The notes: generated from the letters alone by a model not told the origin. A DNA stretch of 64,000 nt from Candidatus Omnitrophota bacterium (GCA_035352955.1 DAOPYQ010000004.1:99903-163902); one strand, 5' to 3'; counted from the first letter of the stretch, positions 27,501 through 62,965 are shown. Numbers and translations are program-made.

Positions 27501-27545
27501 TTTAGAAAATATACTCTTTCATTAAAAAAATAAACTCGCCTGCTT

Positions 27546-27938
27546 TTACAATTTGGCCAATTCGGCCTTGGAACAACCCATAATGCCGACTTTGAGTCCG
27601 CCGGCTTTCAAGATCCTGGTCGAACTTCCGAACAAAGAAGCCAGAACCACAAGGTTTACGAGCGGAACGATCAATCCAATCGCGTAGAGGAACGGCACAT
27701 CTTTTTTCAGTGCTTTGGCCAAACGGTATATCAGGATGATAAAATAAACAACAAGCACAAGAACGACTAGGCTCAGAAATAAATTTACCAGCACAGCCAC
27801 GGCGTTCGTTTTATCGAGCGGTATAAAGATTCCGACGATCCGCAAACCGAGGATCGTCAAAAAGCACCAAAGCGGCTTGCTTTGTGCTTTCGCAAGATTC
27901 AGCAATTCTTCTTTTTCGAAAATCGGTTTTTCGCCCAT
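27546..27938 (-). CDS. small integral membrane protein, function unknown
   Basis: 130 aa with 3 predicted TM helices and no recognisable motif. Confidence 0.45.
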   Translation of the reverse strand: MGEKPIFEKEELLNLAKAQSKPLWCFLTILGLRIVGIFIPLDKTNAVAVLVNLFLSLVVLVLVVYFIILIYRLAKALKKDVPFLYAIGLIVPLVNLVVLASLFGSSTRILKAGGLKVGIMGCSKAELAKL

Positions 27939-28044
27939 ATTTCCCTCCGCGTTTCAAGTTGCATTTCGCAAATATCCCATCTCCAACCTTACAACAGCCT
28001 GCCAGCTCACGCGATAAACATGGCCGCACCGTAGACGGCTATCA

Positions 28045-28108
28045 CTAAAAAGTCACGGTGCGATACTTATCCATTGGGGATAAGTGCATCGCCGCCCTAA
28101 AGGGCGGC
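28045..28108 (-). terminator. tandem hairpins downstream of queA (probable terminator)
   Basis: GCCGCCC-TAAA-GGGCGGC (28091-28108) and GCGATACTTATCC-ATTGG-GGATAAGTGCATCGC (28060-28092). A TTTTT run follows on the minus strand. Confidence 0.45.
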
Positions 28109-28116
28109 TTGCCAAC

Positions 28117-29280
28117 TTACGCAATAAACATTGCATCGCCATAACTCGCGAAACGGTAATCTTCTCTCAGGGCGGTATTGTACGCATTCATCATCTTGTC
28201 GTAATCTAAAAAAGCGGCGACCATGACAAGGAGCGTGCTCTTCGGCATATGAAAGTTGGTGATCAAAGCATCGACGATCTTAAATTCATAAGGCGGATGA
28301 ATAAAGATCGAGGTGTTTGCCCTGCCCGAAACGACCCCCCTCTGTGACCGGGGCTCGATAAGATTGGCCGCGGATTCGAGGGCGCGGACGCAAGTCGTGC
28401 CACAGACCACGACACGCCGGCCTTCGCGCTTGGCTTTATTGATCCGCGCCGCGGCATCTTCCGTGATCTCGTATTCTTCCTCGAACATTTTGTGCCGCTC
28501 GATCTCCTCGACCGCGATCGGCTGAAAAGTGCCGTAACTCACATGGAGCGTCACGGGAACAATTTCGACGCCCTTCCGGCGGATCTTCTCCAACAGCGCG
28601 TCGTCAAAATGAAGCCCCGCCGTCGGCGACGCCACAGCGCCTTCCTTTTCCGCAAAAACCGTCTGATACATGCTCCGGTCAAGCTCAATGTCATCACGAT
28701 CAATATACGGCGGAAGCGGAATATGCCCGAGTTTTTTGATCTTATCTTTCACGTCCGCGCCTTCAAAACGAATCCTGCGTTTCCCGGAATGCGGCTCGGC
28801 AGATGCGATCACTGTACCAACAAGCGAGATCGCTTCGTCACCACCCCCACTCCTCGCATGGACCGGCGACCGGCTTCCCTCCTTCTGAGCGACGCGAAGG
28901 ATCCCCCCCTGAGATCCTTCGTCAGGCCGTGGGTCTTCCTCAGGATGACGGATAAAAGTAATCCGCTCGCCGTCTTTGATCCGGCCGCCGGGTTTGAGCA
29001 ACGTCTCCCAAACGTTCGCGCCGACTTCCTTCAGCAAAAGCGCCTCGACCTTTCCGCCCGTCACCTTTTTCCCGAAAAGCCTCGCCGGAAGAACTTTGGT
29101 ATTGTTCAGAACGAGCAGGTCCGTGGGGTTCAGAAGACCCGGCAGATCGGAAAAGACACGGTGCGAGCAGACACCGCTCACCTTGTCGATGCACAAAAGT
29201 TTCGCGCCGGTACGTTGCTCGTCCGGGAACAGCGCGATCTTTTCTTTCGGCAAGGGATAATCAAAATCGGAGAGTTTCAT
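28117..29280 (-). CDS. queA: S-adenosylmethionine:tRNA ribosyltransferase-isomerase
   Basis: QueA N-terminus MKLSDFDYPLPKEKIA and C-terminal FASYGDAMFIA. At 387 aa it is ~30 aa longer than typical QueA, with an internal insertion. Confidence 0.9.
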   Translation of the reverse strand: MKLSDFDYPLPKEKIALFPDEQRTGAKLLCIDKVSGVCSHRVFSDLPGLLNPTDLLVLNNTKVLPARLFGKKVTGGKVEALLLKEVGANVWETLLKPGGRIKDGERITFIRHPEEDPRPDEGSQGGILRVAQKEGSRSPVHARSGGGDEAISLVGTVIASAEPHSGKRRIRFEGADVKDKIKKLGHIPLPPYIDRDDIELDRSMYQTVFAEKEGAVASPTAGLHFDDALLEKIRRKGVEIVPVTLHVSYGTFQPIAVEEIERHKMFEEEYEITEDAAARINKAKREGRRVVVCGTTCVRALESAANLIEPRSQRGVVSGRANTSIFIHPPYEFKIVDALITNFHMPKSTLLVMVAAFLDYDKMMNAYNTALREDYRFASYGDAMFIA

Positions 29281-32325: not shown

Positions 32326-32870
32326 TGAGAGCTCCTTTGGCGCGCGACCACCGTCGTTTCAATGACCTCGCTTGGACCGCCTTTCACTCCTTCTTCATTT
32401 CGTGCTCGCGCCGTCAACTTGATCGTCACAATGTTCGGCACGCCCGGATGAAGGGTAAAAACAAGGCTTTGAAGATCCGTTGCTACTGTGCGCTGTTCCT
32501 GCGTTCCGTCACTCAATCTTGTTTTCGTACATATCAGATACTTCGAGGTCATATCAACGAATTGATAATTATAGGCCGTATCGTCCGCGGGATCAGAAAA
32601 GGTCGGCGTCGCATTTTCATCGACAAACGCTACGAGGTTGGTCGGATTAACGGTAATTCTGTTCGCAATGGCAACCCTGTGAACGATCTCCTCAACCGCG
32701 CCGTAGACGGTATTGGCAAGCGATGCCTCGTCCTTTGTAAAATTAAAAAACGCCCGGTTGTAATGAAGCAAAAGCGCAGTCGCGGTAAAACCGACTACCG
32801 CAAGAAGCGTGGTCGCAACGATCAGCTCGAAAAGTCCCAGCCCGCTCTCGTTTATTTTTAGTCGTTCCAT
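32322..32870 (-). CDS. PilW-like minor pilin (prepilin-type cleavage motif)
   Basis: 182 aa. N-terminal GLGLFELIVATTLLAVVGF has a class III signal-like G/LFELIV motif. Confidence 0.55.
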   Translation of the reverse strand: MERLKINESGLGLFELIVATTLLAVVGFTATALLLHYNRAFFNFTKDEASLANTVYGAVEEIVHRVAIANRITVNPTNLVAFVDENATPTFSDPADDTAYNYQFVDMTSKYLICTKTRLSDGTQEQRTVATDLQSLVFTLHPGVPNIVTIKLTARARNEEGVKGGPSEVIETTVVARQRSSQ

Positions 32871-33297
32871 GTGACCGTCGCCGTCACTTTCTTGTAAGCC
32901 ACGCCGCCGTTCCCGTCAGCAACGTCCCAAACTTTATATTTTCTTGCGCCGCCCTTCGCCAAAAGGGGAACTCCGGCGGGCAAATCTGTTAGCGCTGTGT
33001 TGGTGTATTCCGTCCCGCTGCCGCAGGGCATGCCGAAAGCTTTTCCCGAGCAGGACGCCGTTGAGTCCACGAGCGGAGCCCCCGTCTGCCCTGCCGCAGT
33101 TTGGGCGCTGACGGCATTCCTAAGATTTTCGAGGACTCCGCGAGCGTAGTGCGTGGCCTGAAGATCAAAGCTCCCGCTGGGGCTCCGGCGCTTGTCCCCG
33201 CTCATCAGTGAGGTCATCGAAGTGATCCCCAACGCGAGAATGGCCAAAAGGACGAAACTGACCATTACCTCCAGCAACGACATTCCTCTGCGATCCA
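32858..33297 (-). CDS. PilV-like minor pilin
   Basis: ATG at 33297 gives MDRRGMSLLEVMVSFVLLAILALGI, a prepilin N-terminus. The longer ORF to 33415 is rejected. Confidence 0.6.
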
Positions 33298-33458
33298 TGG
33301 CGCTCCCTTCCTTTCCACTCCTCACAAAAAAAAACGCTTGAGTTATGATAGCACCGGCAACGAAAAGGTCAAATGGCGACAAATCCGTTCCGCGCAACCC
33401 CCGGCCCGTCTTCACCTTCCTCTTTTATCGGCCGTCACGGCGATTCCAAAAGCTTTCG

Positions 33459-34703: not shown

Positions 34704-34746
34704 TAAAAATAAAAAACCGGTTGGGCCCTCAAGGAACCCAACCGGT
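34704..34746 (-). terminator. rho-independent terminator after the PG-binding lipoprotein gene
   Basis: 10-bp perfect stem ACCGGTTGGG/CCCAACCGGT, followed on the minus strand by TTTTTTATTTTT. Confidence 0.65.
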
Positions 34747-34767
34747 CTTTAAAATTCTGAAGCGGTC

Positions 34768-35262
34768 TTATTTGATGGAATCGAGATAAGACTTCAGCTT
34801 CGCCCAGGTCTTACGGCCGCAAACGCCGTCAGCCTTGAAGCCGTTGTCTTTCTGGAAAGCCCGGATCGCGTCACGGGTCGCGGGACCGATCTTGCCGTCC
34901 AGCTTGCCGTCGTAGTAACCGGCCTTCTTGAGGGCCTTCTGAATGTTCACGGAAGGAAGCTCAAAACCGGAAGGCGTGCGATAGATACCTTTGATCACGC
35001 CCTCTTCTTCCTGCAGCGCACCGATCTGTGACTCGGTCGCACCTAATTCACCTTGGAGCTGGCCTTTTTTGGCTTCTTCGGCCTGGAGAGCAGCGCGGGT
35101 ATCCTGGAGCGACTGATCCAAACGCACGAGCTCATCGGTCACCACGCCCATTTGCGCCTGAAGCGTATCCACCTTGCGCGAAGTTTTTCTAGACGCGCAA
35201 CCACTCAACGCGATCACGCCGATCATAAGGAACACCACTGTCAAACGAGCTGCTTTTCCCAT
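34768..35262 (-). CDS. lipoprotein with coiled-coil and C-terminal peptidoglycan-binding (PG_binding_1) domain
   Basis: Lipobox LSGCAS, a heptad-rich middle region, and a C-terminal YDGKLDGKIGPATRDAIRAFQKDNGFKADGVCGRKTW resembling PF01471. Confidence 0.65.
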   Translation of the reverse strand: MGKAARLTVVFLMIGVIALSGCASRKTSRKVDTLQAQMGVVTDELVRLDQSLQDTRAALQAEEAKKGQLQGELGATESQIGALQEEEGVIKGIYRTPSGFELPSVNIQKALKKAGYYDGKLDGKIGPATRDAIRAFQKDNGFKADGVCGRKTWAKLKSYLDSIK

Positions 35263-35321: not shown

Positions 35322-36164
35322 CTAAAGTGTACCAGAAGGGGTCTCCGGAATCAACGGTAAATCTTGCGCGGGCTCGTCCGCGGGACGCACTGCGAACAGC
35401 ATGAATTCCGTGTGCCCGATCATTCTCTGGACTGGACGTGTCTTACCTCCGCGCGCGAGGATCTCTCGCTCTAAAAGTTCGCGGCTTTCCACAAGAATGA
35501 ATCCCTGGGCTCTTAATTCCTCGGCCATCTTTTCGATCTGATTGAACGTGGGGTTGAGACTGACGAGGCGGCCGCCGCCTTTGAGCGCGGCCTTCACCAC
35601 CGAAACCTCTTCCCACGGCTGCGGAATATCCAGAATGACCGCATCAAAACCGGTTTCCGCAAAAGACTCCGTCGCCTGCCGCTGGCAGAATGTCACATGC
35701 GGCCGCAGACCCGCGCGGTCGATGTTCTTGTAGGCGTTCTTCGGAAGATCTTCGCGCCGGTCATAAGTGAACACATGCCCGTCCGGCGCGACGGCTTGCG
35801 CGAGCGCCATCGTCAGGGACCCTGAACCCGTACCGATCTCCATGACCTTGGACCCGCTATGAATGCCGGCCTTCATGATCAACAGCGCTGCGTCCTTCGG
35901 GTAAATGATCCCGCTTTCGCGCGAAGCCTTCATCATGAGATCTTCCATCGTCGGTTTCAAAAGATAGCCGAAGCCGTGCTCGCACACGACCTTTTTGCCG
36001 AACGGCTGGCCGATCCAGCTTTCGACATCCAGCGGCTTGCCGCAGTGGATGGAGGCGCGTTTCCCCCGCGCAACTTCGATCATATAAGTGCGTTCGTCAT
36101 CGAACCAAAGAAGGACAAGGTCCCCTTCTTTGATCCCGCCTGTTATTTCCATTGGATTTCCCAT
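35322..36164 (-). CDS. trmI: tRNA (adenine-N1)-methyltransferase (TrmI/Gcd14 family)
   Basis: SAM-binding motif VMEIGTGSGSLT and overall Gcd14 architecture. An AGGGAA SD is upstream. Confidence 0.8.
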   Translation of the reverse strand: MGNPMEITGGIKEGDLVLLWFDDERTYMIEVARGKRASIHCGKPLDVESWIGQPFGKKVVCEHGFGYLLKPTMEDLMMKASRESGIIYPKDAALLIMKAGIHSGSKVMEIGTGSGSLTMALAQAVAPDGHVFTYDRREDLPKNAYKNIDRAGLRPHVTFCQRQATESFAETGFDAVILDIPQPWEEVSVVKAALKGGGRLVSLNPTFNQIEKMAEELRAQGFILVESRELLEREILARGGKTRPVQRMIGHTEFMLFAVRPADEPAQDLPLIPETPSGTL

Positions 36165-36233
36165 GTCTTTATTCCCTGAAACTGCTCCGTGAATTTCGAT
36201 CGGGACAGGTACGATAGCCTTTCCCAGAATAAT

Positions 36234-36884
36234 TTACCACCCTTTTTCTTTCGCGAGCCGGAGTAACTCGGAAAAATCACGGACGATATGATCCGGTTTG
36301 GCTTCGCGCAGAACCGCTTCACTCGCGAAACCGTGGGACAACGTTACCACCTCCACCCCGCCGTTCCGTGCCGCTTCAATATCGATCGGGCTGTCGCCTA
36401 CAAACAGGACCTCGCCGGCTTCCGACCCCGTCGTTTCCATCAGGTGATGGATCGCGGCCGGATCCGGCTTGAACGGCAAGCCGTTGTCGCCCGCCAGAAT
36501 GGCAATAAAATGATCCGCGACGCCAAGCGACGCGAGGATCTGCGAAGAAAAGGGATTGGGCTTGTTCGTGATCACCGCCTGCTGACGGTCTTTGAAATAT
36601 TCCAGAAATTCGCGCGCGCCCGGGTAAAGGGACGAATGATCAAGCATGTGTTCCTTATAGTGGGCCCGGTAGAGCTTTGCGCCCTTGTCCGCGAGAACGT
36701 CATCCTGGGTGCGAAACACCTGTTTGATCAAGGAATGCAGTCCGGTCCCCACGCAATCCTTGATCTCGTCATCGGTAAGCTCCGGTCCGCTCAATGCTTT
36801 GAGCGCATACCGCACGCTGTTGATGATATCGCGGCGCGTATCGACGAGTGTCCCGTCTAGATCGTACAAAATAAGTTTTTTCAT
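36234..36884 (-). CDS. HAD-family phosphatase (phosphoglycolate phosphatase-like)
   Basis: HAD motif I LYDLDGTLVDT and motif IV GDSPIDIEAARNGG. Confidence 0.75.
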   Translation of the reverse strand: MKKLILYDLDGTLVDTRRDIINSVRYALKALSGPELTDDEIKDCVGTGLHSLIKQVFRTQDDVLADKGAKLYRAHYKEHMLDHSSLYPGAREFLEYFKDRQQAVITNKPNPFSSQILASLGVADHFIAILAGDNGLPFKPDPAAIHHLMETTGSEAGEVLFVGDSPIDIEAARNGGVEVVTLSHGFASEAVLREAKPDHIVRDFSELLRLAKEKGW

Positions 36885-37834
36885 ATGATTTTTGATGGAG
36901 TTCCAGTCGCGGGGATCTTGTCTTCCGTTAAAATGCGTCCGAAAACGTCGGGCATGGCGCTGGTGAAAACCACGGGTTCACCGGTCACGGGATGCATCAG
37001 GGCAAGATGAAATGCGTGAAGCGCGAGGCGTCCGGCCGGATTCGTCTTCGCGCCGTAACGGTCGTCTCCCGCGATCGGATGGCCCATGTCGGAAAGATGG
37101 ACGCGGATCTGGTGTTTGCGCCCGGTCTCAAGCTCCACTTCCAGAAGCGAATAGTGCGCACTTGAACGGAGGACCCTGTAGTGCGTGGTCGAACGTTTGG
37201 CGCCAGCTTCTTCCTTTTTCGTGCTGTAAACTTTCAAAAATTTGTTCTCGCGCAGAAAACTCGTGAGCGTCCCCGCCGGTTTCTGGGGGATCCCTTCCAC
37301 GACTGCATAATATTTTTTCCGGACCTCGGTCCACCCGGACTGAAGCCGCGTCTTGATCTCGAGGTCCTTTGCAAAGATGAGAAGCCCCGACGCTTCCCGG
37401 TCGAGCCGGTGAACGATAAAGATCTTTTTTCTCCGGACCAGTTTTTCGCCCGGCCGGCACGGTCGCCCGGAATTCGCGGCATCCGTTTTGCACACATGTT
37501 CGTTCGCGGCATAAAAAGCAGTCTGCGTCCCAACGCTCTCGGTCGAAACGGTCAAGAGCCCGGAGGGTTTTTCGATCACGAGGATCGCGTCATCCTCATA
37601 CACAATCGTGATGCCGAACTTCGGACGTGCTTCGGGCCGCGCCTCTTTAAGCGAAAGGATCCCGACCTGGTCTCCCGGCACAAGTGGGTGATCGAACTGC
37701 GTGACAATCGCGCCGTTCACTAAGACCGTCCGGAATTTCAGGAGTTGCCGCACGCGCGTCTTCGACGTGTCGGAAAGTTCCTTAAAAAGATATTCCAGAA
37801 GCTTCCCGCCCGACCGGACCTCAAAAGTTCTCAT
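36881..37834 (-). CDS. RluA-family pseudouridine synthase with N-terminal S4 domain (RluC/RluD type)
   Basis: ATG at 37834 (MRTFEV…). It has an S4-like N-terminus and the catalytic motif HRLDREASGLLIFAK. The 95-codon upstream extension of the ORF lacks homology and is rejected. Confidence 0.8.
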   Translation of the reverse strand: MRTFEVRSGGKLLEYLFKELSDTSKTRVRQLLKFRTVLVNGAIVTQFDHPLVPGDQVGILSLKEARPEARPKFGITIVYEDDAILVIEKPSGLLTVSTESVGTQTAFYAANEHVCKTDAANSGRPCRPGEKLVRRKKIFIVHRLDREASGLLIFAKDLEIKTRLQSGWTEVRKKYYAVVEGIPQKPAGTLTSFLRENKFLKVYSTKKEEAGAKRSTTHYRVLRSSAHYSLLEVELETGRKHQIRVHLSDMGHPIAGDDRYGAKTNPAGRLALHAFHLALMHPVTGEPVVFTSAMPDVFGRILTEDKIPATGTPSKII

Positions 37835-38415
37835 GAATACTGCCTGCCTTTCTCTTTGATCTTCAAAAGCTGTCTCTGACGAGGATCCAACTCGCGCCAC
37901 TTCCCCTCCGCGAGACTCCCCAACTCGAAGGCTCCGATAGCGGTACGAACGAGCCGGAGCGTGGGAAATCCCACCGCCGCCGTCATGCGCCGCACCTGCC
38001 GATTCTTGCCTTCTATAAGTTTCAGCTCGACCCAGCTGGTCGGAACGGAAAGACGGAATCGGATCGGCGGATCCCTCGGCGGATAACCCGGATCCGCGAT
38101 CAACCGTGCCTGACACGGCTCGGTCTTGCGCCCCTGGATCATCACTCCCTTTCGCAGCTGCGCCATCGCCTCTTCGGTCGCCAAACCCTCCACCTGAGCG
38201 TGATACGTCCGCTCATGGCCATGCCGCGGATGAAGCAAAAGATCGTTCCATTCCTTCTCATCGCTCAAAAGTAGCAGCCCCTCACTGTCCCAATCGAGTC
38301 GCCCGATCGGATAAACCTGTTCCGGAAATCCGAATTCCGCAAGCGTCCGGTGCTCCGGCTCCTGTTGGGTGAACTGCGATAGGATCCCGTAAGGTTTATG
38401 AAATGCAAGGATCAT
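37831..38415 (-). CDS. rluE: 23S rRNA pseudouridine synthase RluE (RsuA family)
   Basis: Close recall-level match to E. coli RluE: [71 protein letters not shown] at 38415. Confidence 0.85.
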
Positions 38416-38714
38416 AATATTTCTCGAAAACCTTCGTCTTGCTCGCGGGCGGCTTTTTTGCGCTCCGCCTTCAAACACTGATGGCAGAACTTCTTGTAAA
38501 GATCCTCGACCTTGGCCCGGGCCCACGGCGTCTTCCGAAGGAAGGTCAGGCTCGACTTGACGCTCGGATCAAAATGAAAGCACCGGATCCGGATCTGCTC
38601 CCCCATTTTTTTCCAGCCGTAGGCCTCCACGAGCCGGGTGAGGATCGTCTCGAGCGTGACACCGTGCAACGGATCTTTCGGATGTTGCGCAGGCATCCCA
38701 TCCTTAGTCTGCAT
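38412..38714 (-). CDS. DUF2132 (VF530-like) small protein
   Basis: 100 aa with [24 protein letters not shown]…[16 protein letters not shown], a conserved DUF2132 pattern. Confidence 0.55.
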
Positions 38715-39465
38715 TCGTCTCTCTCGTCTGGTTCAATAACAGATCAAAACAAGGCGGAATGGCCGAGGTAAGCTTCACGGCCTCGCCAGTCACGGGATGC
38801 CGGAATTCGAGTCGCGATGCATGTAGCAAAAGCCGCTCCGCCCGAACCACCGGCCGCATTTCTTCCCGCCAGCCTTCCTGAATATACCGCTCAAAGATCC
38901 GCGGGTCGATGTAGATCTTATCACCCGCAATGGGATGCCCCAAAAAAGCCAGGTGGGCGCGGATCTGGTGCGTGCGCCCGGTGTAAGGAACGATCTTAAG
39001 AAGCGAATAATCGCCGGCGCTTTCCAGGACCTGATAGTCCGTCCGCGCCGTTTCCCCCGCGGCATCCGGCGTCCGGATGTTGTGCCCGCTCGCAACATCG
39101 GTCCCAAGCGGCGTCGTGATCGTTCCTTGCTTCTGTTCCGGCGTTCCGATCACGATCGCATGATATTCCTTCAGGACTTCGCGCCGCTCAAAAAGAATGC
39201 CGAGCTTGCCCGCCATCAAGCTCGACCGGGAGACCAGCACGAGCCCGCTCGTTTCGGAATCAAGCCGGTTCACGATCTGAAAACCTTCCGGCCCCGGGCG
39301 AAGATCTTTTTTTAGAAGGCTGAGAAGATTTTTCTCCTTGAATCTCCCGACCGGATGGACCGGAAGCGGCGCCGGTTTCTCGACCGCAAGAAAGAAACCG
39401 TCCTCATAAAGGATCCTGTAGCCTGTCTCGACGTAAAGATCTGCTTCGGTCCGCAAAGGCCTCAC
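38704..39465 (-). CDS. RluA-family pseudouridine synthase (RluA/TruC type, no S4 domain)
   Basis: Catalytic motif [15 protein letters not shown] and a C-terminal [10 protein letters not shown]. Confidence 0.8.
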
Positions 39466-39468
39466 CTG

Positions 39469-42400
39469 TCACCCTTCCGCGGGAACGGGCGCGGTCGCCA
39501 TGCGCTCATTCGAATAATCGAGGATCTTGTGCTGGAGATCGCAGATCTTCTTTTCGAGTCCGTCAAAAAATGCTTCGGTCTTTTCCGCAGGGAACGGAAG
39601 GGTGACCGCTTTCTGATTCTTCAGATAATAAAGGATCCCCGAGCGGACAGGCAATTTCAGGATCTTCTGCGCCGCAAGCGCGTAGATCTCGAGCTGGAGA
39701 TCGTAGCTGCTTTTTTTCGCGGCCGCCTCGTCACCGGTCGCGGTCTTGTAATCGAGGATGTGCCATTCTCCCTGTTCGTCCTCGAAAAGTACGTCGAGCT
39801 TTCCGTAGATAAGACCGTGACGGCCGTTCAGGACAAAATCGGTCTCGCGTTCGATCCGTCTGGCTTTCTGCAATTGTTTGAACACCGGACTCTGGATAAA
39901 ACCTTTGACGAGCTCGCGCGCCCCGGCAACGGATTCTTTTCCAAAATGGCCGAAGAGTCTTTCCAGGGATCCGGATTCCAGGCAAAGCTCCGGTTGTTTG
40001 AGATCGAGGTGTTCAAAGAACGTATGCATCGCCGTCCCGAAATCGGCCGCGCGAACCTCCTCGCCCTTCCAGTCGGGATCTTTCCCCGCCCATTCGTTCT
40101 CGACAGCCGGCCCGATCCCTGTCACCTTTTCCTGATCCTCCGGAACAAAGACCGTCCATCCGATCTGATACCGCCGCCAAAACTCGCCGGGATCTTTCCG
40201 GAAAAGCACGAACGCGGACACCGGAAGGTCGATCGTCCGCGGCTGCGCCCGTTCGCTTTTATCCCGGAGCCCGGGGAAAGTCCCCGCACCCCGCACGGCC
40301 TGCGCTTCGAACTTTTCGACAATGCGCGCGATCTTTTCTTTTTCAACCGCCGGCCTGCGCACCGGGATCCCGGAATCCTTATCCGCATCACAGGTGATCC
40401 GGACGCCGAGGCCTTCGGCAAGGGCCATCGCCCAGTCCATCCAGCTCGTCATCTCGGAAAAAAGTTCTTTTTCCTTTTTCTTTTTCGCGTAGACCCCGCT
40501 CAGGAAAAGGCGCGACTTCGCGCGGGTCACGGCGACGTAAAAAAGCCGTTTCCATTCTTCGTTTTCCCGTTTTTTGACGGCCCGATCGATCGCTTTGTAA
40601 AAATAAGGTTCTTCGGGTTCAAGATCTTTTTCGTTGCGGAAGCGCATGCTGAAACCCTCGGCGGCGTGCGCGATCACGGTCTTCGCTTCTCCATGCCGGC
40701 CCTGATGCCCCATGTCCGCGACGAACACCGCCCCGAACTCAAGCCCCTTCGCCGCGTGAACGCTCATCATCCGCACCGCTTGCGCGCCGTCCTCAAGGGC
40801 GATCTGCGCCTCGGACTCGCGAACGTCCCGGGCCCGCAACCGTTCGAGGATGTTCAAAAAAACCGCGAGAGGAACGCGTTCATAGGTTTCATATTCGCGA
40901 ACGATCGCAATAAGCTTTTTGAGATTGGCAAAACGGCGAACCCCCGACGGTCCGGCCAGCGCCGAAAGCTCATATCCCGTGCGTTCAAGGATCCGGTCGA
41001 TCAGCTCCGCGAGGGAAACACGGTCTTTGAGGCCCCGGAGCTCGGCGGCCACGGCCGTAAATGCCCGCAGTTGCCGTTTCTGTTCTTCCGCGATCTCCGA
41101 GATCCCGTCCGCGCGTTTCACGGCCTCATAGAGCGGCGCCGCGTCGTTATTATTTTTTTTCGCGTCCCGCGACAGCCAGAAAAGCGTGTCATCCGTAACA
41201 TGGAAGAACGGCGACCGGAGCACCGCCGCCAGGGGAATATCGGAAAGCGGCTTTTCAAGATGCGTCAGAAAACTCATCATGTCCTGGATCTCGGGCTGTT
41301 CATAAAACCCGCGACCCGCCACGATAAAATAAGGAACGCCGGCCGTTTTCAATGCGTCCTCATAAATCCCGCTCACCGTCATGGCCTGAAAAAGTATCGC
41401 CATCTCGCCGTACGGAACGCCCTTTTCATGGAGCTCCCCGATCCGCAGGGCGATCGCCCGCGCCTCCCGCATCCGCGCGTGCTCTTTTTCCTCGTCCCCT
41501 TCGACCTCGGTGACAAGCAGCTCGACGGCCGGCGCTTCGCTCTCCTGTTTCTTCTTCGCGGCAAGAGGCTCGAACGAAAACCCGTCTTCATCCCACAACG
41601 CCGCGAAAAAACCGTTCACGAAATCCACCACAAGCGGCTCACTGCGGAAACTTTCCGCCAGGAAAATACGTTCGCCCGCTTCCCCGTCCGCGTAAAACGC
41701 TTCCTTTTCCAGGAAAAGGCGCGGTTCAGCGCCCCGGAAACCGTAAATGGATTGTTTGTAGTCGCCGACCATAAACAGGTTGTCGCCGGACGACAGGAGT
41801 TCGGCAAAACGCATTTGGAGAAAATTCGTGTCCTGGAACTCGTCGATCAGGATATATTTGAACTGCTTTTGATAACGCTCGCGCAGCTTCGCCAGAACGG
41901 ACCCGGTCCCGGCAAAAAGCCCCACGGCCATCCTCTGAAGGTCGTCGAAATCCAGCAGTCCTTTTTCTTTTTTCTTCGCGTCGTAAGCCTCTTCAAAAAG
42001 AAGCGCCAGGGTCTCGAGTTTCTTCTGCCAGGGAACGGCCAGCGGCCCGATCCGAAGTGCGGCAAGATCCTCGAGAAGTCCGCGCCATTCTTTCCAGCCT
42101 TCCTTGCGCTTCCCCTTATAAAGCGAGCTCCACTCCCAAAAATCCGAAAGCGTCTCCCAATCCCATGTTTTGTTCCTGAAAAACCGCTCCCATGCGCCGG
42201 CGTCGATCTCCGGAAGTTTTTCAATAAGCGCCGGAGCTTCGCCCGCAAGTTCTTTTTCCCTCCGGGCGGACACCGCCTCGCGCTGGGTGTCATTTTCTTC
42301 GAAAAATTCCCGCAGGAGCTTGCCTTCGTGGCGCGCGGCAGTGAAGACCTTTAAAATACCGGCCCGGGCGGAGTCTTCGCCGTAAGCCGCAAGAAGTTCG

Positions 42401-42828
42401 AACGCATCATTTTTTGTTTCGTAAACTTTTTCGATCGTCGCCTGGAGCGCCTCTTCCTTGAGAAGTTCCGACTGTTCGGACTCGAGCACCCGGAATTCCG
42501 GATCGACACCTGCCTCGACCGGATGCTCTTTCAGGAGCCGCGATGCGAAACCGTGGAACGTAGAAATAGCGGCCCGTTCAAGGTCGCGGCGCGGCCGCTC
42601 CATCCCGGCCTTCCGGAGTTCGACCGAAAGGCGTCCTTTGATCTCATTCGCGGCTTTTTCGGTGAACGTAAGGACCAGAAGTTCGGTGATCCGGGCCTTT
42701 TCTGTTTTCAGTAGATGCAGGATCCGCTCAACCAAAACACGCGTTTTCCCGGTTCCGGCTCCGGCTGAAACGAGAAGGTTCTTCCCAAGGGACTGAACCG
42801 CTTTTTCTTGAGCGCTGGTGAGTGTCAT
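39469..42828 (-). CDS. AddA-like ATP-dependent helicase/nuclease (UvrD/PcrA SF1 helicase with C-terminal RecB-family PD-(D/E)xK nuclease)
   Basis: 1119 aa. Walker A motif AGAGTGKT. The C-terminus has the RecB-nuclease motifs GKLDVLFEDE…ILDYKTA…QLEIYALA. Confidence 0.8.
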   Translation of the reverse strand: MTLTSAQEKAVQSLGKNLLVSAGAGTGKTRVLVERILHLLKTEKARITELLVLTFTEKAANEIKGRLSVELRKAGMERPRRDLERAAISTFHGFASRLLKEHPVEAGVDPEFRVLESEQSELLKEEALQATIEKVYETKNDAFELLAAYGEDSARAGILKVFTAARHEGKLLREFFEENDTQREAVSARREKELAGEAPALIEKLPEIDAGAWERFFRNKTWDWETLSDFWEWSSLYKGKRKEGWKEWRGLLEDLAALRIGPLAVPWQKKLETLALLFEEAYDAKKKEKGLLDFDDLQRMAVGLFAGTGSVLAKLRERYQKQFKYILIDEFQDTNFLQMRFAELLSSGDNLFMVGDYKQSIYGFRGAEPRLFLEKEAFYADGEAGERIFLAESFRSEPLVVDFVNGFFAALWDEDGFSFEPLAAKKKQESEAPAVELLVTEVEGDEEKEHARMREARAIALRIGELHEKGVPYGEMAILFQAMTVSGIYEDALKTAGVPYFIVAGRGFYEQPEIQDMMSFLTHLEKPLSDIPLAAVLRSPFFHVTDDTLFWLSRDAKKNNNDAAPLYEAVKRADGISEIAEEQKRQLRAFTAVAAELRGLKDRVSLAELIDRILERTGYELSALAGPSGVRRFANLKKLIAIVREYETYERVPLAVFLNILERLRARDVRESEAQIALEDGAQAVRMMSVHAAKGLEFGAVFVADMGHQGRHGEAKTVIAHAAEGFSMRFRNEKDLEPEEPYFYKAIDRAVKKRENEEWKRLFYVAVTRAKSRLFLSGVYAKKKKEKELFSEMTSWMDWAMALAEGLGVRITCDADKDSGIPVRRPAVEKEKIARIVEKFEAQAVRGAGTFPGLRDKSERAQPRTIDLPVSAFVLFRKDPGEFWRRYQIGWTVFVPEDQEKVTGIGPAVENEWAGKDPDWKGEEVRAADFGTAMHTFFEHLDLKQPELCLESGSLERLFGHFGKESVAGARELVKGFIQSPVFKQLQKARRIERETDFVLNGRHGLIYGKLDVLFEDEQGEWHILDYKTATGDEAAAKKSSYDLQLEIYALAAQKILKLPVRSGILYYLKNQKAVTLPFPAEKTEAFFDGLEKKICDLQHKILDYSNERMATAPVPAEG

Positions 42829-42934
42829 AAATTGCTAGTTCTTGATTTCTTTTGATTTCATCTATTTTTTAAGAATTACACATCTAAAAATGCATTATAC
42901 AAAAAAAGCCTGGCGCTATGGCAAAAATGAAATT

Positions 42935-43393
42935 ATGCGTTATACTTTTGCCGTGGAAAATGAAAAGCGCGAATTTTTCAGGCACCCCATCAAGGTACCG
43001 ATCCAGCTGACGAAAGTCGCCGATGAAAGTTCCGCCGCCCTGAAGACCGAGGACCTGTCCCAAGGCGGTCTTTCTTTTTTCTGGCCGGAAAATCTCCCGG
43101 AAGGAATGCACCTTCAACTTTCGATCCCGGTGGAGAAACAGCTTTTCAAGATGAGCGCGCATGTGGCCTACTGCAGAAAAGACACGGGCACCGGGCTTTT
43201 CAAAACGGGGGTCTGTTTTGAGGACGCCGCGAGCGCTTTCCGCGCAAAACTCGCCGAAGAGATCATCCAGATCCGTCAGTACTGCGAAAAGATGTCACTC
43301 CTCCGCGGCCGCTCGATCTCCGAACAGGAGGCCGCCGAAATGTGGATCGATAAGAACGCCCGGAATTTCGCAGGCCGGATGGGAGCGAATTAG
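42935..43393 (+). CDS. PilZ-domain c-di-GMP binding protein
   Basis: PilZ motifs RxxxR (REFFRHPIKVP) and D.S.GG (DLSQGGLSF). Start chosen at ATG 42935; the ORF opens at 42842. Confidence 0.65.
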   Translation: MRYTFAVENEKREFFRHPIKVPIQLTKVADESSAALKTEDLSQGGLSFFWPENLPEGMHLQLSIPVEKQLFKMSAHVAYCRKDTGTGLFKTGVCFEDAASAFRAKLAEEIIQIRQYCEKMSLLRGRSISEQEAAEMWIDKNARNFAGRMGAN

Positions 43394-49393: not shown

Positions 49394-49651
49394 TTACTTT
49401 GGAAAAGCCCGAGGAAGCGTAAGGGTGAATTTCGTTCCTTCCCCCAGTTTGCTCTCAACCTTGATGTCGCCCTGATGCATTTTTACCGCGCGGGCCACCA
49501 CAAGAAGGCCCAACCCGGCGCCTTCCTTTCCCTTCGTCGTGAAGAACATCTCAAAAAGACGGGCCCGGACATCTTCCGGCATGCCGGAAGCGTTGTCCTC
49601 GACGATCAGCTCATACTTTTCCTGGCTGATCATCCGCGCAGTCACCTTCAC
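49394..49651 (-). pseudogene. truncated histidine-kinase ATP-binding domain remnant (G1/G2 boxes only)
   Basis: The 85-codon ORF encodes …LIVEDNASGMPEDVRARLFEMFFTTKGKEGAGLGLLVVAR…, the HATPase_c G1 (DNxxG) and G2 (GxGLGL) boxes. An in-frame TAG lies 2 codons upstream. No N-box, H-box or sensor region is present in any frame of the 325-bp upstream spacer. Confidence 0.55.
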
Positions 49652-49976: not shown

Positions 49977-50996
49977 TTAGAAAAGCTGCTTGAGATTTTC
50001 GGGAGGTTTGACGCCGAAGTGCTGGTAAGTGAGCTCGGTGATGATGCGGCCAGCGGAGGTCCGTTTCATAAAACCCCTCTGGATAAGATAAGGTTCATAA
50101 ATTTCCTCGAGCGTCTCAGCGTCTTCCCCTACGCCCACCGCAAGACTGTTAACACCGACCGGCCCGCCTTTGCATTCCTTCAGAATATATTTCAGAATGC
50201 GTTTATCCATCGGATCAAGACCTTCCAGATCCACACCGAGCATCTTGAGACCTTGGTCCGCGACATCGGCCGTGATCCTGCCATCCGCCTTGACCTGGGC
50301 ATAGTCCCGGACGCGACGGAGCAGGCGGTTCGCGATACGCGGCGTACCACGGGCACGGCCCGCGATCTCAAACGCGCCTTTTTCGTCGATCCCGATATTC
50401 AGGATCTTCGCGGAGCGCTTCACGATCGTGGCAAGGTCTTCAGCCTCGTAATAATTAAGCCTTTCGACGATACCGAAACGGGAGCGAAGAGGAGCGGTCA
50501 GAAGCCCGCTGCGCGTGGTGGCGCCGATCAGCGTAAAACGAGGGATTTGCATCTTCACCGAACGGGCATGCGGCCCCTTGTCGATCATGATCTCGATCGA
50601 GAAATCTTCCATCGCGGAATACAGGTATTCTTCGACGACATGCGGGATACGGTGGATCTCGTCAATGAACAGCATATCGCCCTTTTCGAGGTTCGTAAGG
50701 ATCCCCGCAAGATCACCGGCGCGCTCAAGCACGGGACCGGACACCTGATGGATCTTGGCGCCCATGCGGTTGGCAATGATATTAGCGAGCGTGGTCTTGC
50801 CGAGGCCCGGAGGCCCAAAGAGAAGAATATGGTCGAGCGACTCCTTCCGTCCGAGCGCGGCCTCGATGAAAACCTTGAGGTTCTCCTTCACCTGCGTCTG
50901 GCCGATAAACTCATCGAGCGTGTTCGGCCGGAGCGTGACCTCGATCTCGATTTCTTCCGGCTTATATTCCTGGTCCAAGAACCGTTCTTCCGCCAT
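49977..50996 (-). CDS. ruvB: Holliday junction branch-migration ATPase RuvB
   Basis: Walker A motif [11 protein letters not shown]; 339 aa. Confidence 0.93.
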
Positions 50997-51238
50997 CAGA
51001 CTCCCCTACTTTTATCGCCGAGAAGCTCCCTTGCCGCTTCAGCGTCTTCTTTGCGAACCCATATTTGATTGCCTTTTGTAAAAGTAAACCCTTCCTGCGA
51101 AGGATCGGCAGCCGGGGTCAATATCGCTCTAATCCCGCCGCTTTCCAAAAGTCCCTTGGCAATCTCCGCTTCTTGCTCGCTCAGGAACACTTTAACGCAA
51201 ATCAACTCGGTATCATCTTGAAACCTGTCGTCTGTCAT
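50996..51238 (-). CDS. small DUF2007-like protein
   Basis: 80 aa from ATG 51238. Resemblance to DUF2007 is weak ([11 protein letters not shown]). Confidence 0.35.
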
Positions 51239-51297
51239 AATTAGCGGTCCACGGGCCAAGGGCCACGTGGTGCGTGGGTCGTGGTACGTGGCCCGAA

Positions 51298-51900
51298 TTA
51301 TACGTGCTTCAACGCCGCGCGGATGATCTCTTCCACCGACGGCTTCTTGCCCAGCAACGATTTCAGCGACTTCTGCACGGCCGCTTTGGCCTTCTGTTTT
51401 GTATAACCCAGCGCCACGAGCGCCAAAACCGAATCCTCAACCATTTGGTCGGAAACGCTCTGCTCATGCGCGATCTCTTTGCCGGCCGGGATATCGGCCT
51501 TGCCGATCTTGTCCTTGAGCTCGATCACGACGCGCTCTGCCGTCTTCTGTCCGATCCCAGAAATGGCGGTCAGCACGGGGATATTATGCTCCTGGATCGC
51601 CCGCTTAAGTTCCGGAAGGGTCACACCGGAAAGCAGCGTGATCGCAAGCTTCGGACCGATCCCGGAGATCGAAATAAGCAACCGGAAAACCTCGCGTTCT
51701 TCCTCGGTTGCGAATCCGTAAAGAAGCTGCGCATCCTCCCGAACGACGAAATGCGTAAAAAGCTTGGCCGGCTGCCCGAGACCCGGAAGGCTCGAAAACG
51801 TCGAAAGCGATACGCGCACCTCGTAGCCGATCCCGTTCACGTCCAGGATCACCGCCACCGGCGTCTTTTCCGCGATTTTTCCGTTCAAGTAGTGATACAT
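51298..51900 (-). CDS. ruvA: Holliday junction DNA helicase RuvA
   Basis: The N-terminal YLNGKIAEK…GYEV OB fold and tandem HhH (ISGIGPKLA, ISGIGQKTAERV). Confidence 0.9.
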   Translation of the reverse strand: MYHYLNGKIAEKTPVAVILDVNGIGYEVRVSLSTFSSLPGLGQPAKLFTHFVVREDAQLLYGFATEEEREVFRLLISISGIGPKLAITLLSGVTLPELKRAIQEHNIPVLTAISGIGQKTAERVVIELKDKIGKADIPAGKEIAHEQSVSDQMVEDSVLALVALGYTKQKAKAAVQKSLKSLLGKKPSVEEIIRAALKHV

Positions 51901-51924
51901 ACCCGGTCCCGTTTTTTTGAACTT

Positions 51925-52344
51925 TTATTCTATATGAGGAAAGAACGAAAAAGCCAAAACATACATTTTCCCTCCGGAGGACGCCATACTGACACGCGCC
52001 GCTGCCAGGCTCTTTTCGAATTTTATCTTAAATTCGAACGTCAGGCAAAAATAACCGCCGGAAAAGAATTTGCTGATGAGGAACGTTTCGAAGCTCTCCG
52101 CCTTCCCAAGGTCCGGATAAGCCTGCGCGATGAACTTTTCGAGCTCCTCCGGCGTGATCTTCTCTTTCGTTGAGGGATGGTTCATAGCATAGAGCTCGGC
52201 CGCATCCCTCTTCAGAAAACAATCCACGGCTTGATTCGCTCCGGCCATGGCCTTCAGATAAAAATTCCCGGCCCAAAAAGCGCCCACTCCCAAAAGAACC
52301 AACCCAAGCACCACCGCAAAACCGGCAGCCTGTCTTCGGGTCAT
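51925..52344 (-). CDS. membrane-anchored hypothetical protein inserted between ruvC and ruvA
   Basis: 139 aa with an N-terminal TM/signal segment and no motifs. Confidence 0.45.
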   Translation of the reverse strand: MTRRQAAGFAVVLGLVLLGVGAFWAGNFYLKAMAGANQAVDCFLKRDAAELYAMNHPSTKEKITPEELEKFIAQAYPDLGKAESFETFLISKFFSGGYFCLTFEFKIKFEKSLAAARVSMASSGGKMYVLAFSFFPHIE

Positions 52345-57450: not shown

Positions 57451-57498
57451 GATTGTCTCCCTACTTTATGGTGCATGGCTTGGAAGAATCCCCATCAT

Positions 57499-62938: not shown

Positions 62939-62965
62939 TTCTATCAATTCCTGCCTTGTTCGGAC

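What the first reader, a model, noticed from the sequence alone, without database searches (positions are those of the whole stretch)
36234..42828. Operon coupling an AddA-like helicase-nuclease (no AddB partner) to three pseudouridine synthases, a DUF2132 protein and an HAD phosphatase
From 42828 down to 36234 six genes are packed with overlapping or 4-nt-spaced boundaries. The first is a 1119-aa UvrD-type helicase with an intact C-terminal RecB-family nuclease. It is followed by an RluA-type Psi synthase, a DUF2132/VF530 protein, RluE, an S4-domain RluC/D-type Psi synthase, and an HAD phosphatase. trmI (tRNA m1A methyltransferase) lies just downstream. AddA normally works with AddB, encoded adjacently, but no AddB-like gene is within the window, and the divergent neighbour is a PilZ protein. 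Co-transcription of a DNA end-processing helicase-nuclease with three RNA pseudouridine synthases has not been described as far as I know. It may simply reflect operon packing of housekeeping genes. It could also indicate an RNA-directed role for this helicase-nuclease, or a standalone AdnAB/AddA-like enzyme.
Basis: partly seen in the sequence, partly recalled or inferred. Interest (0 to 1): 0.55.

Follow-up and report, generated by a model that had tools for sequence, protein, structure and literature searches.

The report
Ordinary AddA gene beside RNA-modification genes
The helicase-nuclease is an ordinary AddA DNA-repair subunit whose AddB partner is encoded elsewhere in the same genome, and the pseudouridine synthase genes next to it are a gene-order accident found only in this species, so the cluster is ordinary.

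Summary
Six tightly packed minus-strand genes lie at 36234-42828: addA-like, an RluA-type Psi synthase, VF530, an RluE-like synthase, an RluD-like synthase and a HAD hydrolase. They continue into trmI and a peptidoglycan-binding gene and end at a strong terminator at 34712-34750. The window has no addB.

- **A partner exists.** The same assembly (Candidatus Omnitrophota MAG GCA_035403665.1) carries an intact 1055-aa AddB on another contig. It has a Walker A motif, a DYK nuclease motif and four Fe-S cysteines, and it sits in the gene context conserved for addB in relatives.
- **The gene order is not conserved.** In 24 of 24 relatives with downstream DNA, addA is followed by HAD-trmI. None has a Psi synthase or VF530 there.

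In the sister clade the orthologue sits in a canonical PTPS-addB-addA-…-HAD-trmI row. In the window's clade about 15 genes separate addB from addA. The addA/HAD junction holds unrelated genes in different lineages, and the Psi/VF530 block is this species' occupant. It has native base composition and no mobile-element marks.

Best reading: a coincidental housekeeping operon. Interest is low. The conserved addA-HAD (phosphoglycolate-phosphatase-like) pairing is the only link worth a further look.

The parts
39469..42828 (-). addA: 1119-aa SF1 UvrD-type helicase with a C-terminal RecB-family nuclease. It is the AddA subunit of AddAB.
   Evidence: Pfam finds UvrD-helicase (1.4e-65), UvrD_C and PDDEXK_1. 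The best NCBIfam match is addA_Gpos at 471 bits, below the cutoff of 708. The best solved structure is B. subtilis AddA 3U44_A, E=6e-79, against UvrD/PcrA at about 1e-49, AdnB 3.6e-34 and RecB 2e-18. The Walker A motif GAGTGKT, the DEFQD motif and the nuclease motif ILDYKT align to the AddA catalytic sites. It is collinear end to end (46% identity) with orthologues that sit next to canonical addB.
38704..39465 (-). RluA-family pseudouridine synthase without an S4 domain (250-253 aa). First gene of the species-specific 4-gene insert.
   Evidence: PseudoU_synth_2 at 8.8e-31. TIGR00005 at 189.7 bits against a cutoff of 192.7. Absent at this position in 24 of 24 relatives.
38412..38714 (-). VF530/DUF2132 small protein (94-100 aa), predicted to bind nucleic acid, function unknown.
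   Evidence: PF09905 at 6.9e-34. Homologues fall in 1470 representative clusters, and the best 150 are all small stand-alone proteins of 76-179 aa with no fusion to Psi synthases. The gene overlaps both neighbours.
37831..38415 (-). RsuA/RluB/E/F-family pseudouridine synthase without an S4 domain (RluE-like, 194 aa).
   Evidence: TIGR00093 at 167 bits, above its cutoff of 109. The RluE equivalog scores 170 bits, below its cutoff of 284. The gene call is 194 aa.
36881..37834 (-). RluA-family pseudouridine synthase with an S4-like N-terminus (RluD/C-like, 317 aa). Last gene of the insert.
   Evidence: TIGR00005 at 190.7 bits, covering model positions 4-294 of 298. PseudoU_synth_2 at 3.6e-31. NCBI names it an RluA family pseudouridine synthase.
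36234..36884 (-). HAD-IA hydrolase resembling phosphoglycolate phosphatase (216 aa). It is the conserved downstream neighbour of addA.
   Evidence: HAD_2 at 4.7e-36. NF009695 phosphoglycolate phosphatase at 169 bits, below the cutoff of 225. It follows addA in 24 of 24 relatives at 46-84% identity.
35322..36164 (-). trmI, tRNA (adenine-N1)-methyltransferase (280 aa).
   Evidence: GCD14 at 4.4e-36. NCBI name. Conserved after HAD wherever the relative's DNA reaches that far (22 of 24 loci), at 74-89% identity.
34768..35262 (-). Lipoprotein-like PG_binding_1 protein (164 aa). Probably the last gene of the transcription unit.
   Evidence: PG_binding_1 at 8.5e-20. Conserved after trmI in relatives.
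34712..34750 (-). Intrinsic-terminator-like hairpin (17-bp stem, then a T run). Probable 3' end of the operon.
   Evidence: and the sequence read. This is a consensus match only. The total number of terminator-like sites in the region is no higher than in shuffled sequence, but this one is by far the longest stem.
42842..43393 (+). Divergent PilZ-domain gene. The short addA-PilZ spacer must hold the addA promoter.
   Evidence: PilZ at 1.6e-13. The EAL / PilZ <-> addA arrangement is conserved across the window's clade. A weak sigma-70-like match lies at 42959-42932 on the minus strand.
49394..49651 (-). Truncated remnant of a histidine-kinase-type ATPase gene. It marks a rearrangement breakpoint on the addB side of addA.
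   Evidence: It aligns to residues 300-384 of the intact 387-aa protein in relative L009 (62% identity, E=1e-37). In relatives this gene leads through a cyclase, three FecR genes, a TPR gene and a DEAD/DSHCT helicase back to addB. In the window ruvB follows instead.

Best explanation
The 1119-aa protein is the AddA subunit of a conventional AddAB double-strand-break resection enzyme of a Candidatus Omnitrophota bacterium.

**How the gene order arose.**
- The ancestral order, still present in the sister clade, is PTPS-addB-addA-(variable)-HAD-trmI-PG_binding-spoIID.
- In the window's clade about 15 genes, mostly signalling genes, lie between addB and addA. addB stays behind PTPS. addA starts its own unit opposite a PilZ gene.
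- In the window's species a further rearrangement put addB on another contig. The scar is the truncated ATPase gene at 49394-49651.
- The spot between the addA stop and the HAD start holds different unrelated genes in different lineages. In this species it holds a native 2.6-kb block: two RluA-family synthases, one RsuA/RluE-family synthase and VF530.

**How it works.** These genes are probably read through from the addA promoter together with HAD, trmI and the PG_binding gene. That is co-transcription without shared mechanism. AddA pairs with the unlinked AddB and resects DNA ends. The synthases modify rRNA or tRNA.

**Shown:** gene content, orthology, the intact partner, and lack of conservation of the pairing. 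**Inferred:** the single transcript, the heterodimer, and the order of the rearrangements.
For: **AddA identity.** Domains and motifs are. The best solved relative is B. subtilis AddA. The protein is collinear over its full length with orthologues whose start overlaps, or lies 2 nt after, a canonical 1068-1069-aa addB (ADDB_N + PDDEXK_1, Walker A, 4 Cys) in L007 and L008.

**Partner in the same genome.** L047 is contig DAONFQ010000022.1 of GCA_035403665.1, the assembly that also holds the window's addA (L002). It carries PTPS followed by a 1055-aa AddB.
- Features: best NCBIfam match addB_Gpos at 1.4e-80, below its equivalog cutoff (271 bits against 904); Walker A GPAGCGKT; DYK at 918; cysteines C767, C1023, C1027 and C1033 invariant with canonical AddBs.
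- The same AddB locus occurs in JGI sample 3300025858, and its flanking genes in Logan run SRR5007244. Both datasets also carry the window's addA locus.
- A neighbouring Fer4 gene has accessions HNX68066.1 and HPS37202.1. The window's AddA has HNX68687.1 and HPS36406.1.
- L047 has GC 0.546 and a tetranucleotide correlation of 0.982 with the window, equal to the window's internal value.
- AddA and AddB identities co-vary with r=0.99 over 10 comparisons. This AddB fits the profile predicted from the window's AddA, with rmsd 1.7 percentage points.

**The split is clade-wide.**
- AddA HOW58160.1 and AddB HOW58145.1 lie 15 genes apart in one genome.
- Five AddA/AddB pairs share a contig without being adjacent.
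- The right end of the addB loci and the left end of the addA loci share gene content.

**No conservation of the Psi pairing.** tblastn with all window proteins found HAD downstream of addA in 24 of 24 relatives (46-66% AddA identity), and trmI beyond it wherever the locus reaches that far. It found no Psi synthase or VF530 hits. The junction instead carries HAMP-HD, CBS, bestrophin, trypsin-like protease, FMN reductase, a GDSL-like gene, Fer4_5 or a response regulator in different lineages.

**The block is native.** Its GC (0.55-0.58) and GC3 (0.66-0.70) match the flanking genes, and no flanking repeats were found.

**AddA is not evolving unusually.** Its identity relative to neighbouring genes is a ratio of 0.83, against 0.81-0.82 for other divergent lineages. 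It has 13 unique changes at otherwise invariant sites, against 12 for L028.
Against: - The tight overlaps (three ATGA junctions, no internal terminator) mean the Psi synthase genes really are embedded in the addA unit in this species, so co-expression is likely and could have some regulatory meaning.
- The genome is a metagenome-assembled bin. Assigning the addB contig to the same cell rests on binning, co-occurrence in three datasets, composition and co-evolution, not on a closed chromosome.
- The closest AddA relatives (about 70% identity: P0050, P0053, P0058, P0099) are N-terminal fragments at contig ends. Whether a sister lineage shares the insert could not be checked.
- AddA and AddB both score below the NCBIfam equivalog cutoffs.
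- No transcript or biochemical data exist.
Confidence: 0.87

Rival explanations
1. AddA here works without AddB. It is either a stand-alone or AdnAB-like helicase-nuclease, or an RNA-directed enzyme acting with the three pseudouridine synthases and VF530.
For: No addB lies in the 64-kb window. The genes are translationally coupled. Two AddB profile searches did not list an AddB from this genome.
Against: An intact AddB is present in the same assembly and in co-occurring datasets. The pairing is absent in 24 of 24 relatives. AddA is an orthologue of addB-adjacent AddAs, its catalytic motifs are unchanged, and its evolutionary rate is not accelerated. AdnB is a much weaker match than AddA. VF530 shows no fusion with synthases or helicases in the best 150 homologues.
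Confidence: 0.02
2. The Psi/VF530 block arrived recently by horizontal transfer or a mobile element that landed in the addA-HAD junction.
For: The block is unique to this species among the relatives sampled. The junction is a variable spot with different cargo in different lineages.
Against: GC and GC3 cannot be told apart from the flanking genes. No flanking direct or inverted repeats, integrase or transposase were found. The junctions are seamless ATGA overlaps, which suggests long residence or an internal relocation. Where these genes sit in relatives could not be determined.
Confidence: 0.07
3. The co-transcription is adaptive at the level of regulation only. DNA-break repair, rRNA/tRNA modification and HAD/trmI share one growth- or stress-linked promoter, with no physical or mechanistic coupling.
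For: There is a single plausible promoter region, no internal strong terminator, and overlapping start and stop codons down to HAD. The addA-HAD-trmI linkage is conserved across the phylum.
Against: The Psi synthase part is not conserved in any relative, so selection for that co-regulation is not visible. The variable cargo at the same junction argues for neutral accretion.
Confidence: 0.1

Closest known systems
AddAB helicase-nuclease of Bacillus subtilis (structures 3U44, 3U4Q, 4CEH)
   Same: AddA has the same architecture: an SF1A UvrD-like motor plus a C-terminal RecB-family nuclease. The B. subtilis AddA is its best solved match at E=6e-79. The partner AddB has an ADDB_N helicase-like domain with a Walker A motif, a RecB nuclease and four cysteines placed as in the Fe-S cluster.
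   Different: Sequence identity is low, and both subunits score below the NCBIfam equivalog cutoffs (471 of 708 bits for AddA, 271 of 904 for AddB). addB and addA are not adjacent in this genome.
AddAB of Helicobacter pylori, whose addA and addB genes are at separate chromosomal loci (from my own knowledge of Amundsen et al. 2008; the paper was not held in the library)
   Same: It is a functional AddAB encoded by unlinked genes. This shows that adjacency is not required for the complex.
   Different: It belongs to a different phylum. The NCBIfam 'RecB-like helicase' models (accession series PRK13909), which from memory I take to be the epsilonproteobacterial AddA type, match the window protein less well than addA_Gpos (196 against 471 bits).
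Canonical PTPS-addB-addA-HAD-trmI loci of other Omnitrophota (L007 from GCA_975752635.1, L008 from GCA_964434115.1)
   Same: They hold orthologous addA (46-47% identity, full length) and the same downstream synteny: HAD, trmI, then PG_binding and spoIID in L008, and queA, tgt, yajC and secDF in L008.
   Different: There addB directly abuts or overlaps addA. In the window's clade about 15 genes separate them, and in the window's species they are on different contigs.
AdnAB (mycobacterial two-motor helicase-nuclease) and RecBCD
   Same: They share the UvrD-like motor plus RecB nuclease module. AdnB matches at 3.6e-34 and RecB at 2e-18.
   Different: Both matches are much weaker than AddA. The partner found is AddB-type (ADDB_N), not AdnA or RecC.

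Membership tests
AddAB (AddA subunit) | SF1A UvrD/PcrA-type helicase core with Walker A and DExx motifs | tested here: met
   UvrD-helicase at 1.4e-65 and UvrD_C at 1.9e-33. GAGTGKT and LIDEFQDT are read in the translation and align to B. subtilis AddA.
AddAB (AddA subunit) | C-terminal RecB-family PD-(D/E)XK nuclease with an intact catalytic motif | tested here: met
   PDDEXK_1 at 1.8e-13, residues 921-1103. GKLDVLFEDEQGEWHILDYKT and QLEIYALA align to the AddA nuclease region of 3U44_A.
AddAB (AddA subunit) | Closer to AddA than to PcrA/UvrD/Rep, RecB or AdnB | tested here: met
   NCBIfam gives addA_Gpos 471 bits, pcrA 283 and recB 225. PDB matches are AddA 6e-79, UvrD 2e-49, AdnB 3.6e-34 and RecB 2e-18.
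AddAB (AddA subunit) | Score above NCBI's curated equivalog cutoff | tested here: not met
   471 bits against a cutoff of 707.65 for TIGR02785, and 238 against 860.75 for TIGR02784. This is expected for a deep-branching candidate phylum. NCBI names the protein only 'UvrD-helicase domain-containing protein', while JGI names relatives 'helicase/nuclease subunit A'.
AddAB (complex) | An AddB partner in the same genome, with a helicase-like N-terminal domain, a RecB nuclease and a 4-Cys Fe-S cluster | tested here: met
   L047:13921-17088 in GCA_035403665.1, 1055 aa, with ADDB_N + UvrD_C + PDDEXK_1. Best NCBIfam match addB_Gpos at 1.4e-80, below its equivalog cutoff (271 bits against 904). GPAGCGKT, DYK918 and C767/C1023/C1027/C1033 are invariant with canonical AddBs.
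AddAB (complex) | addB and addA adjacent in one operon (typical, not strictly defining) | tested here: not met
   There is no addB in the 64-kb window, and addB lies on a different contig. Orthologues in the sister clade are adjacent.
AddAB (complex) | Heterodimer formation, ATP-dependent DNA end resection, Chi recognition | not testable with these tools
   This needs biochemistry or genetics. Co-variation of AddA and AddB identities (r=0.99) is only indirect support for a continuing partnership.
Functionally coupled operon (helicase-nuclease + pseudouridine synthases) | The gene neighbourhood is conserved across related genomes | tested here: not met
   None of 24 relatives with DNA downstream of addA has a Psi synthase or VF530 hit at E<=1e-8. 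None was found near addB either (L011-L017, L039-L048, scanned with tblastn or by the Pfam-annotated gene tables).
Functionally coupled operon (helicase-nuclease + pseudouridine synthases) | Domain fusions or other independent links between the components | tested here: not met
   The best 150 of 1470 VF530 representative homologues are 76-179 aa stand-alone proteins. A full-text search for VF530/DUF2132 returned three papers, none with either term in its title or abstract.
E. coli RluA / RluC / RluD / RluE equivalogs | Score above the equivalog cutoff, allowing a substrate to be assigned | tested here: not met
   RluE scores 170 of 284, RluD 114-124 of 351, RluC 91-107 of 378 and RluA 75-94 of 286. 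Only family-level membership holds: TIGR00093 is met, and TIGR00005 falls just under its cutoff.

The most novel reading that the evidence does not exclude
The link worth considering is not the one flagged. It is the phylum-wide pairing of addA with the next gene, a HAD-IA hydrolase resembling phosphoglycolate phosphatase, present in 24 of 24 relatives and often overlapping or within 30 nt. In E. coli, Gph disposes of the 2-phosphoglycolate released when 3'-phosphoglycolate DNA ends are repaired. A conserved addA-gph-like unit could therefore couple end resection to clearing that product. A weaker variant is that VF530 is an RNA-binding helper for the two S4-less synthases it sits between.
Probability: 0.15. 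Interest if true: 0.3.

Novelty: new member of a known kind. Interest (0 to 1): 0.1.

Why it matters
It matters little. The result removes a tempting false lead, a 'partner-less AddA with an RNA role', and shows it to be a standard AddAB system whose two genes were separated by rearrangement in one Omnitrophota clade. Unrelated housekeeping genes then accreted at a variable junction.

Two modest points are useful.
- Split addA/addB arrangements occur outside the Epsilonproteobacteria, so the absence of an adjacent addB should not be read as loss of the partner.
- Absence from a word-indexed homology search was misleading here. The partner was found only by following conserved neighbours of addB.

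The conserved addA-HAD pairing is a small, testable hypothesis about handling of phosphoglycolate ends.

Tried and rejected
**Searching the window for addB.** I checked all ORFs of 200 aa or more, and Pfam on every large or unassigned ORF. None is AddB-like. The 833-aa ORF at 14170-16671 has no family and no nuclease or helicase signal.

**AddB profile searches.** Neither listed the window genome's AddB. I first suspected P0203, which has the same source pattern. Accession prefixes showed it belongs to other assemblies (HOW/HRY against HNX/HPS). Ten window proteins are absent from those assemblies, so it comes from a different species.

**Other AddB candidates.** P0215 and P0225, chosen by source pattern, come from unrelated samples. 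P0181, chosen by the co-evolution profile, is the nearest lineage but not the same organism.

**Collection scans.**
- The genome-contig scan with P0203 returned only its own genome.
- The metagenome-contig scan with AddA returned no 100% match, so sample co-occurrence could not be read from it. It did give 20 relatives for the synteny test.

**Tetranucleotide composition.** It does not separate species within this clade: L039 scores 0.977 although it is a different organism. I use it only as supporting evidence.

**Relaxed or changed selection on AddA.** I found none.

**Mobile-element marks and RNA elements around the insert.** There are no flanking repeats. Rfam finds only two tRNAs, both elsewhere in the window.

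**Literature.** A full-text search for VF530/DUF2132 returned three papers, none with either term in its title or abstract. The H. pylori addA/addB papers are not held in the library, so that precedent rests on my own knowledge.
Full report

| Gene | Coordinates | Size | Junction with the previous gene |
|---|---|---|---|
| Helicase-nuclease | 39469-42828 | 1119 aa | (first gene) |
| RluA-type synthase | 38704-39465 | 250-253 aa | starts 3 nt after the stop (GTG start) |
| VF530 | 38412-38714 | 94-100 aa | 11-nt overlap |
| RluE-like synthase | 37831-38415 | 194 aa | ATGA 4-nt overlap |
| RluD/C-like synthase | 36881-37834 | 317 aa | ATGA 4-nt overlap |
| HAD hydrolase | 36234-36884 | 216 aa | ATGA 4-nt overlap |

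I read the junctions directly. trmI follows after 69 nt, and a PG_binding lipoprotein gene after a further 59 nt. The only strong terminator-like hairpin (17-bp stem plus T run) lies at 34750-34712, just after that gene. The likely unit is therefore eight genes, not six.

One caveat applies. All matches to specific E. coli synthases (RluA, RluC, RluD, RluE) and to phosphoglycolate phosphatase fall below the curated cutoffs, so only family-level names are justified. PilZ is divergent at 42842-43393. No AddB-like ORF exists anywhere in the 64 kb.

**2. Whose genome is it?** The helicase-nuclease is identical to a protein of a Candidatus Omnitrophota metagenome-assembled genome, GCA_035403665.1, contig DAONFQ010000003.1. 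The same protein occurs in JGI and Logan assemblies of other metagenome samples and sequencing runs.

**3. What is the helicase-nuclease?** It is AddA.
- It carries a UvrD-type SF1 core with Walker A (GAGTGKT) and DEFQD motifs, and a C-terminal RecB-family nuclease with the ILDYKT and QxxxY motifs.
- Its best curated family is addA_Gpos at 471 bits. PcrA scores 283 and RecB 225.
- Its best solved structure is B. subtilis AddA at E=6e-79. UvrD and PcrA score about 1e-49, AdnB 3.6e-34 and RecB 2e-18.
- It falls below the NCBIfam equivalog cutoff, as expected for a deep candidate phylum.

**4. Gene order in relatives.** Annotated neighbourhoods of five homologues and 20 further loci from a metagenome scan were searched with all window proteins by tblastn.

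In the more distant Omnitrophota clade (46-47% AddA identity; L007, L008) the orthologue sits in a textbook arrangement:
- The order is adh_short-PTPS-addB-addA, with the addA start overlapping or 2 nt after the addB stop.
- The 1068-1069-aa AddB has ADDB_N and PDDEXK_1 domains, a Walker A motif and four conserved cysteines.
- Downstream come HAD and trmI, then PG_binding, spoIID, queA, tgt, yajC and secDF in L008. This is the same series as in the window.

In the window's own clade (54-67% identity) every locus reads EAL, PilZ (divergent), addA, HAD, trmI, PG_binding, spoIID.
- HAD follows addA in 24 of 24 loci with downstream DNA.
- In 13 of them HAD starts within 112 nt of the addA stop.
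- None has a pseudouridine synthase or VF530 hit.

Where there is a gap between addA and HAD, it holds unrelated genes:
- HAMP-HD, CBS, an unknown gene and bestrophin (L028);
- a GDSL-like gene (L031);
- a trypsin-like protease (L019, L021, L033);
- a protease plus FMN reductase (L037);
- Fer4_5 (L009);
- a response regulator (L008).

The addA/HAD junction is therefore a variable spot, and the 2.6-kb synthase/VF530 block is this species' particular occupant. Its GC (0.55-0.58) and GC3 (0.66-0.70) match the flanking genes. No repeats, integrase or transposase flank it. It looks native, not newly imported.

**5. Where is addB?**

*In the clade.* addB stays behind PTPS, in the context M48-Fer4-x-CoaE/deaminase-LytB-…-PTPS-addB-DEAD/DSHCT helicase-TPR-FecR×3-cyclase-ATPase. 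The right end of that context is the left end of the addA loci.
- In one genome the NCBI accessions are 15 apart: AddB HOW58145.1 and AddA HOW58160.1.
- Five AddA/AddB pairs share a contig without being adjacent.

*In the window.* The ATPase gene of that series survives only as a C-terminal remnant at 49394-49651, matching residues 300-384 of 387. ruvB follows it. This marks a further rearrangement.

*Finding this genome's own addB took several steps.*
1. Two AddB profile searches failed to list it, and three candidates proved to belong to other organisms.
2. AddA and AddB identities co-vary tightly (r=0.99), which pointed to the P0181 lineage as nearest.
3. The 90%-identity cluster of that lineage's Fer4 neighbour contains a protein with accessions HNX68066.1 and HPS37202.1. 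These are the same two assemblies as the window's AddA, HNX68687.1 and HPS36406.1.
4. Looking that protein up gave contig DAONFQ010000022.1 of the same assembly, GCA_035403665.1. There PTPS is followed by a 1055-aa AddB, L047:13921-17088.

*The AddB is intact.*
- Its best NCBIfam match is addB_Gpos at 1.4e-80, though below the equivalog cutoff (271 bits against 904).
- It has GPAGCGKT, DYK at 918, and C767, C1023, C1027 and C1033 invariant with canonical AddBs.

*It belongs to the same organism.*
- The same locus occurs in JGI sample 3300025858, and its flanking genes in SRR5007244. Both datasets also carry the window's addA locus.
- Its GC is 0.546 and its tetranucleotide correlation with the window is 0.982, equal to the window's internal value.
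- Its identity profile fits the one predicted from the window's AddA, with rmsd 1.7 percentage points.

**6. Is AddA behaving oddly?** No. It is collinear with addB-adjacent orthologues. Its divergence relative to neighbouring genes (ratio 0.83) equals that of other divergent lineages (0.81-0.82). It has 13 unique changes at otherwise invariant sites, similar to L028 with 12.

**7. VF530.** Homologues form 1470 representative clusters. The best 150 are all small stand-alone proteins, with no fusions to synthases or helicases. A full-text search for VF530/DUF2132 returned three papers, none with either term in its title or abstract. Its position between two S4-less synthases is noted but unexplained.

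**8. Verdict.** An addB with the usual features lies elsewhere in the genome, and the gene order is not conserved. The cluster is a species-specific accretion of housekeeping RNA-modification genes into a variable junction of a conserved addA-HAD-trmI unit. AddA most likely works as conventional AddAB on DNA ends. Unlinked addA and addB have a precedent in Helicobacter pylori (my own knowledge; the papers were not held).

The only association that is conserved is addA with the HAD hydrolase. That protein resembles phosphoglycolate phosphatase. E. coli Gph is described as acting in repair of 3'-phosphoglycolate DNA ends (review PMC7062713, which cites Pellicer et al. [quoted passage not shown] This is a modest hypothesis, not a finding.

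Limits of this work: the genome is a bin, no transcript data exist, and the closest AddA relatives are truncated at contig ends.

Noticed in passing
window 36234-36884 with 39469-42828; relatives L006-L010, L018-L037: addA is followed by the same HAD-IA (phosphoglycolate-phosphatase-like) gene in 24 of 24 relatives across both Omnitrophota clades, and by trmI wherever the locus reaches that far. HAD is often overlapping or within 30 nt of addA. E. coli Gph handles the 2-phosphoglycolate released in repair of 3'-phosphoglycolate DNA ends, so this conserved pairing may be functional.
   Followed up: partly
junction between the addA stop and the HAD start (window 36884-39469); L008, L009, L019, L021, L028, L031, L033, L037: This junction is a variable spot. 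Different lineages carry unrelated same-strand genes there: HAMP-HD, CBS, bestrophin, trypsin-like protease, FMN reductase, a GDSL-like gene, Fer4_5 or a response regulator.
   Followed up: yes
window 49394-49651 (-): An 85-aa ORF is the C-terminal remnant (residues 300-384) of a 387-aa HATPase_c protein that is intact in relatives. ruvB follows it instead of the cyclase/FecR/addB series, so it marks a rearrangement scar.
   Followed up: yes
L047:13921-17088 (GCA_035403665.1 contig DAONFQ010000022.1): The genome's own 1055-aa AddB was not listed by two AddB profile searches, although it is 62-69% identical to the query members. Absence from that word-indexed search is not evidence of absence.
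   Followed up: yes
window 38412-38714 (-): The VF530/DUF2132 gene is translationally coupled between two pseudouridine synthase genes that lack S4 domains. Its homologues are widespread small stand-alone proteins of unknown function. A role as an RNA-binding helper is conceivable but untested.
   Followed up: partly
window 14170-16671 (-): An 833-aa ORF has no Pfam family at E<=0.001 and only marginal hits above that. Its function is unknown.
   Followed up: no
window 22015-23649 (-) and 49977-52823 (-): Other recombination genes lie in the same window: recJ, and a ruvC-x-ruvA-DUF2007-ruvB row. YebC, folP and ftsH lie just beyond.
   Followed up: no
window 26379-29280 (-), 35322-39465 (-), 58109-59113 (-): The window has an unusual density of RNA-modification genes: tgt, queA, trmI, three Psi synthases and a tilS-like PP-loop gene. 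The tgt-queA and trmI positions are conserved in relatives. The Psi synthases are not.
   Followed up: partly
window 32858-33415 (-), 56971-57972 (-); L047 8860-9857: Several small genes encode type IV pilin-like proteins (N_methyl motif) and are scattered near the loci studied. One pair is inserted next to Fer4 in the addB locus of this species only.
   Followed up: no
window 61568-62989 (+): A 473-aa ORF with no family lies antisense to a DsbD-thioredoxin gene (61718-62983, -). It is probably a spurious shadow ORF, as is the 999-aa ORF 39355-42354 (+) antisense to addA.
   Followed up: partly
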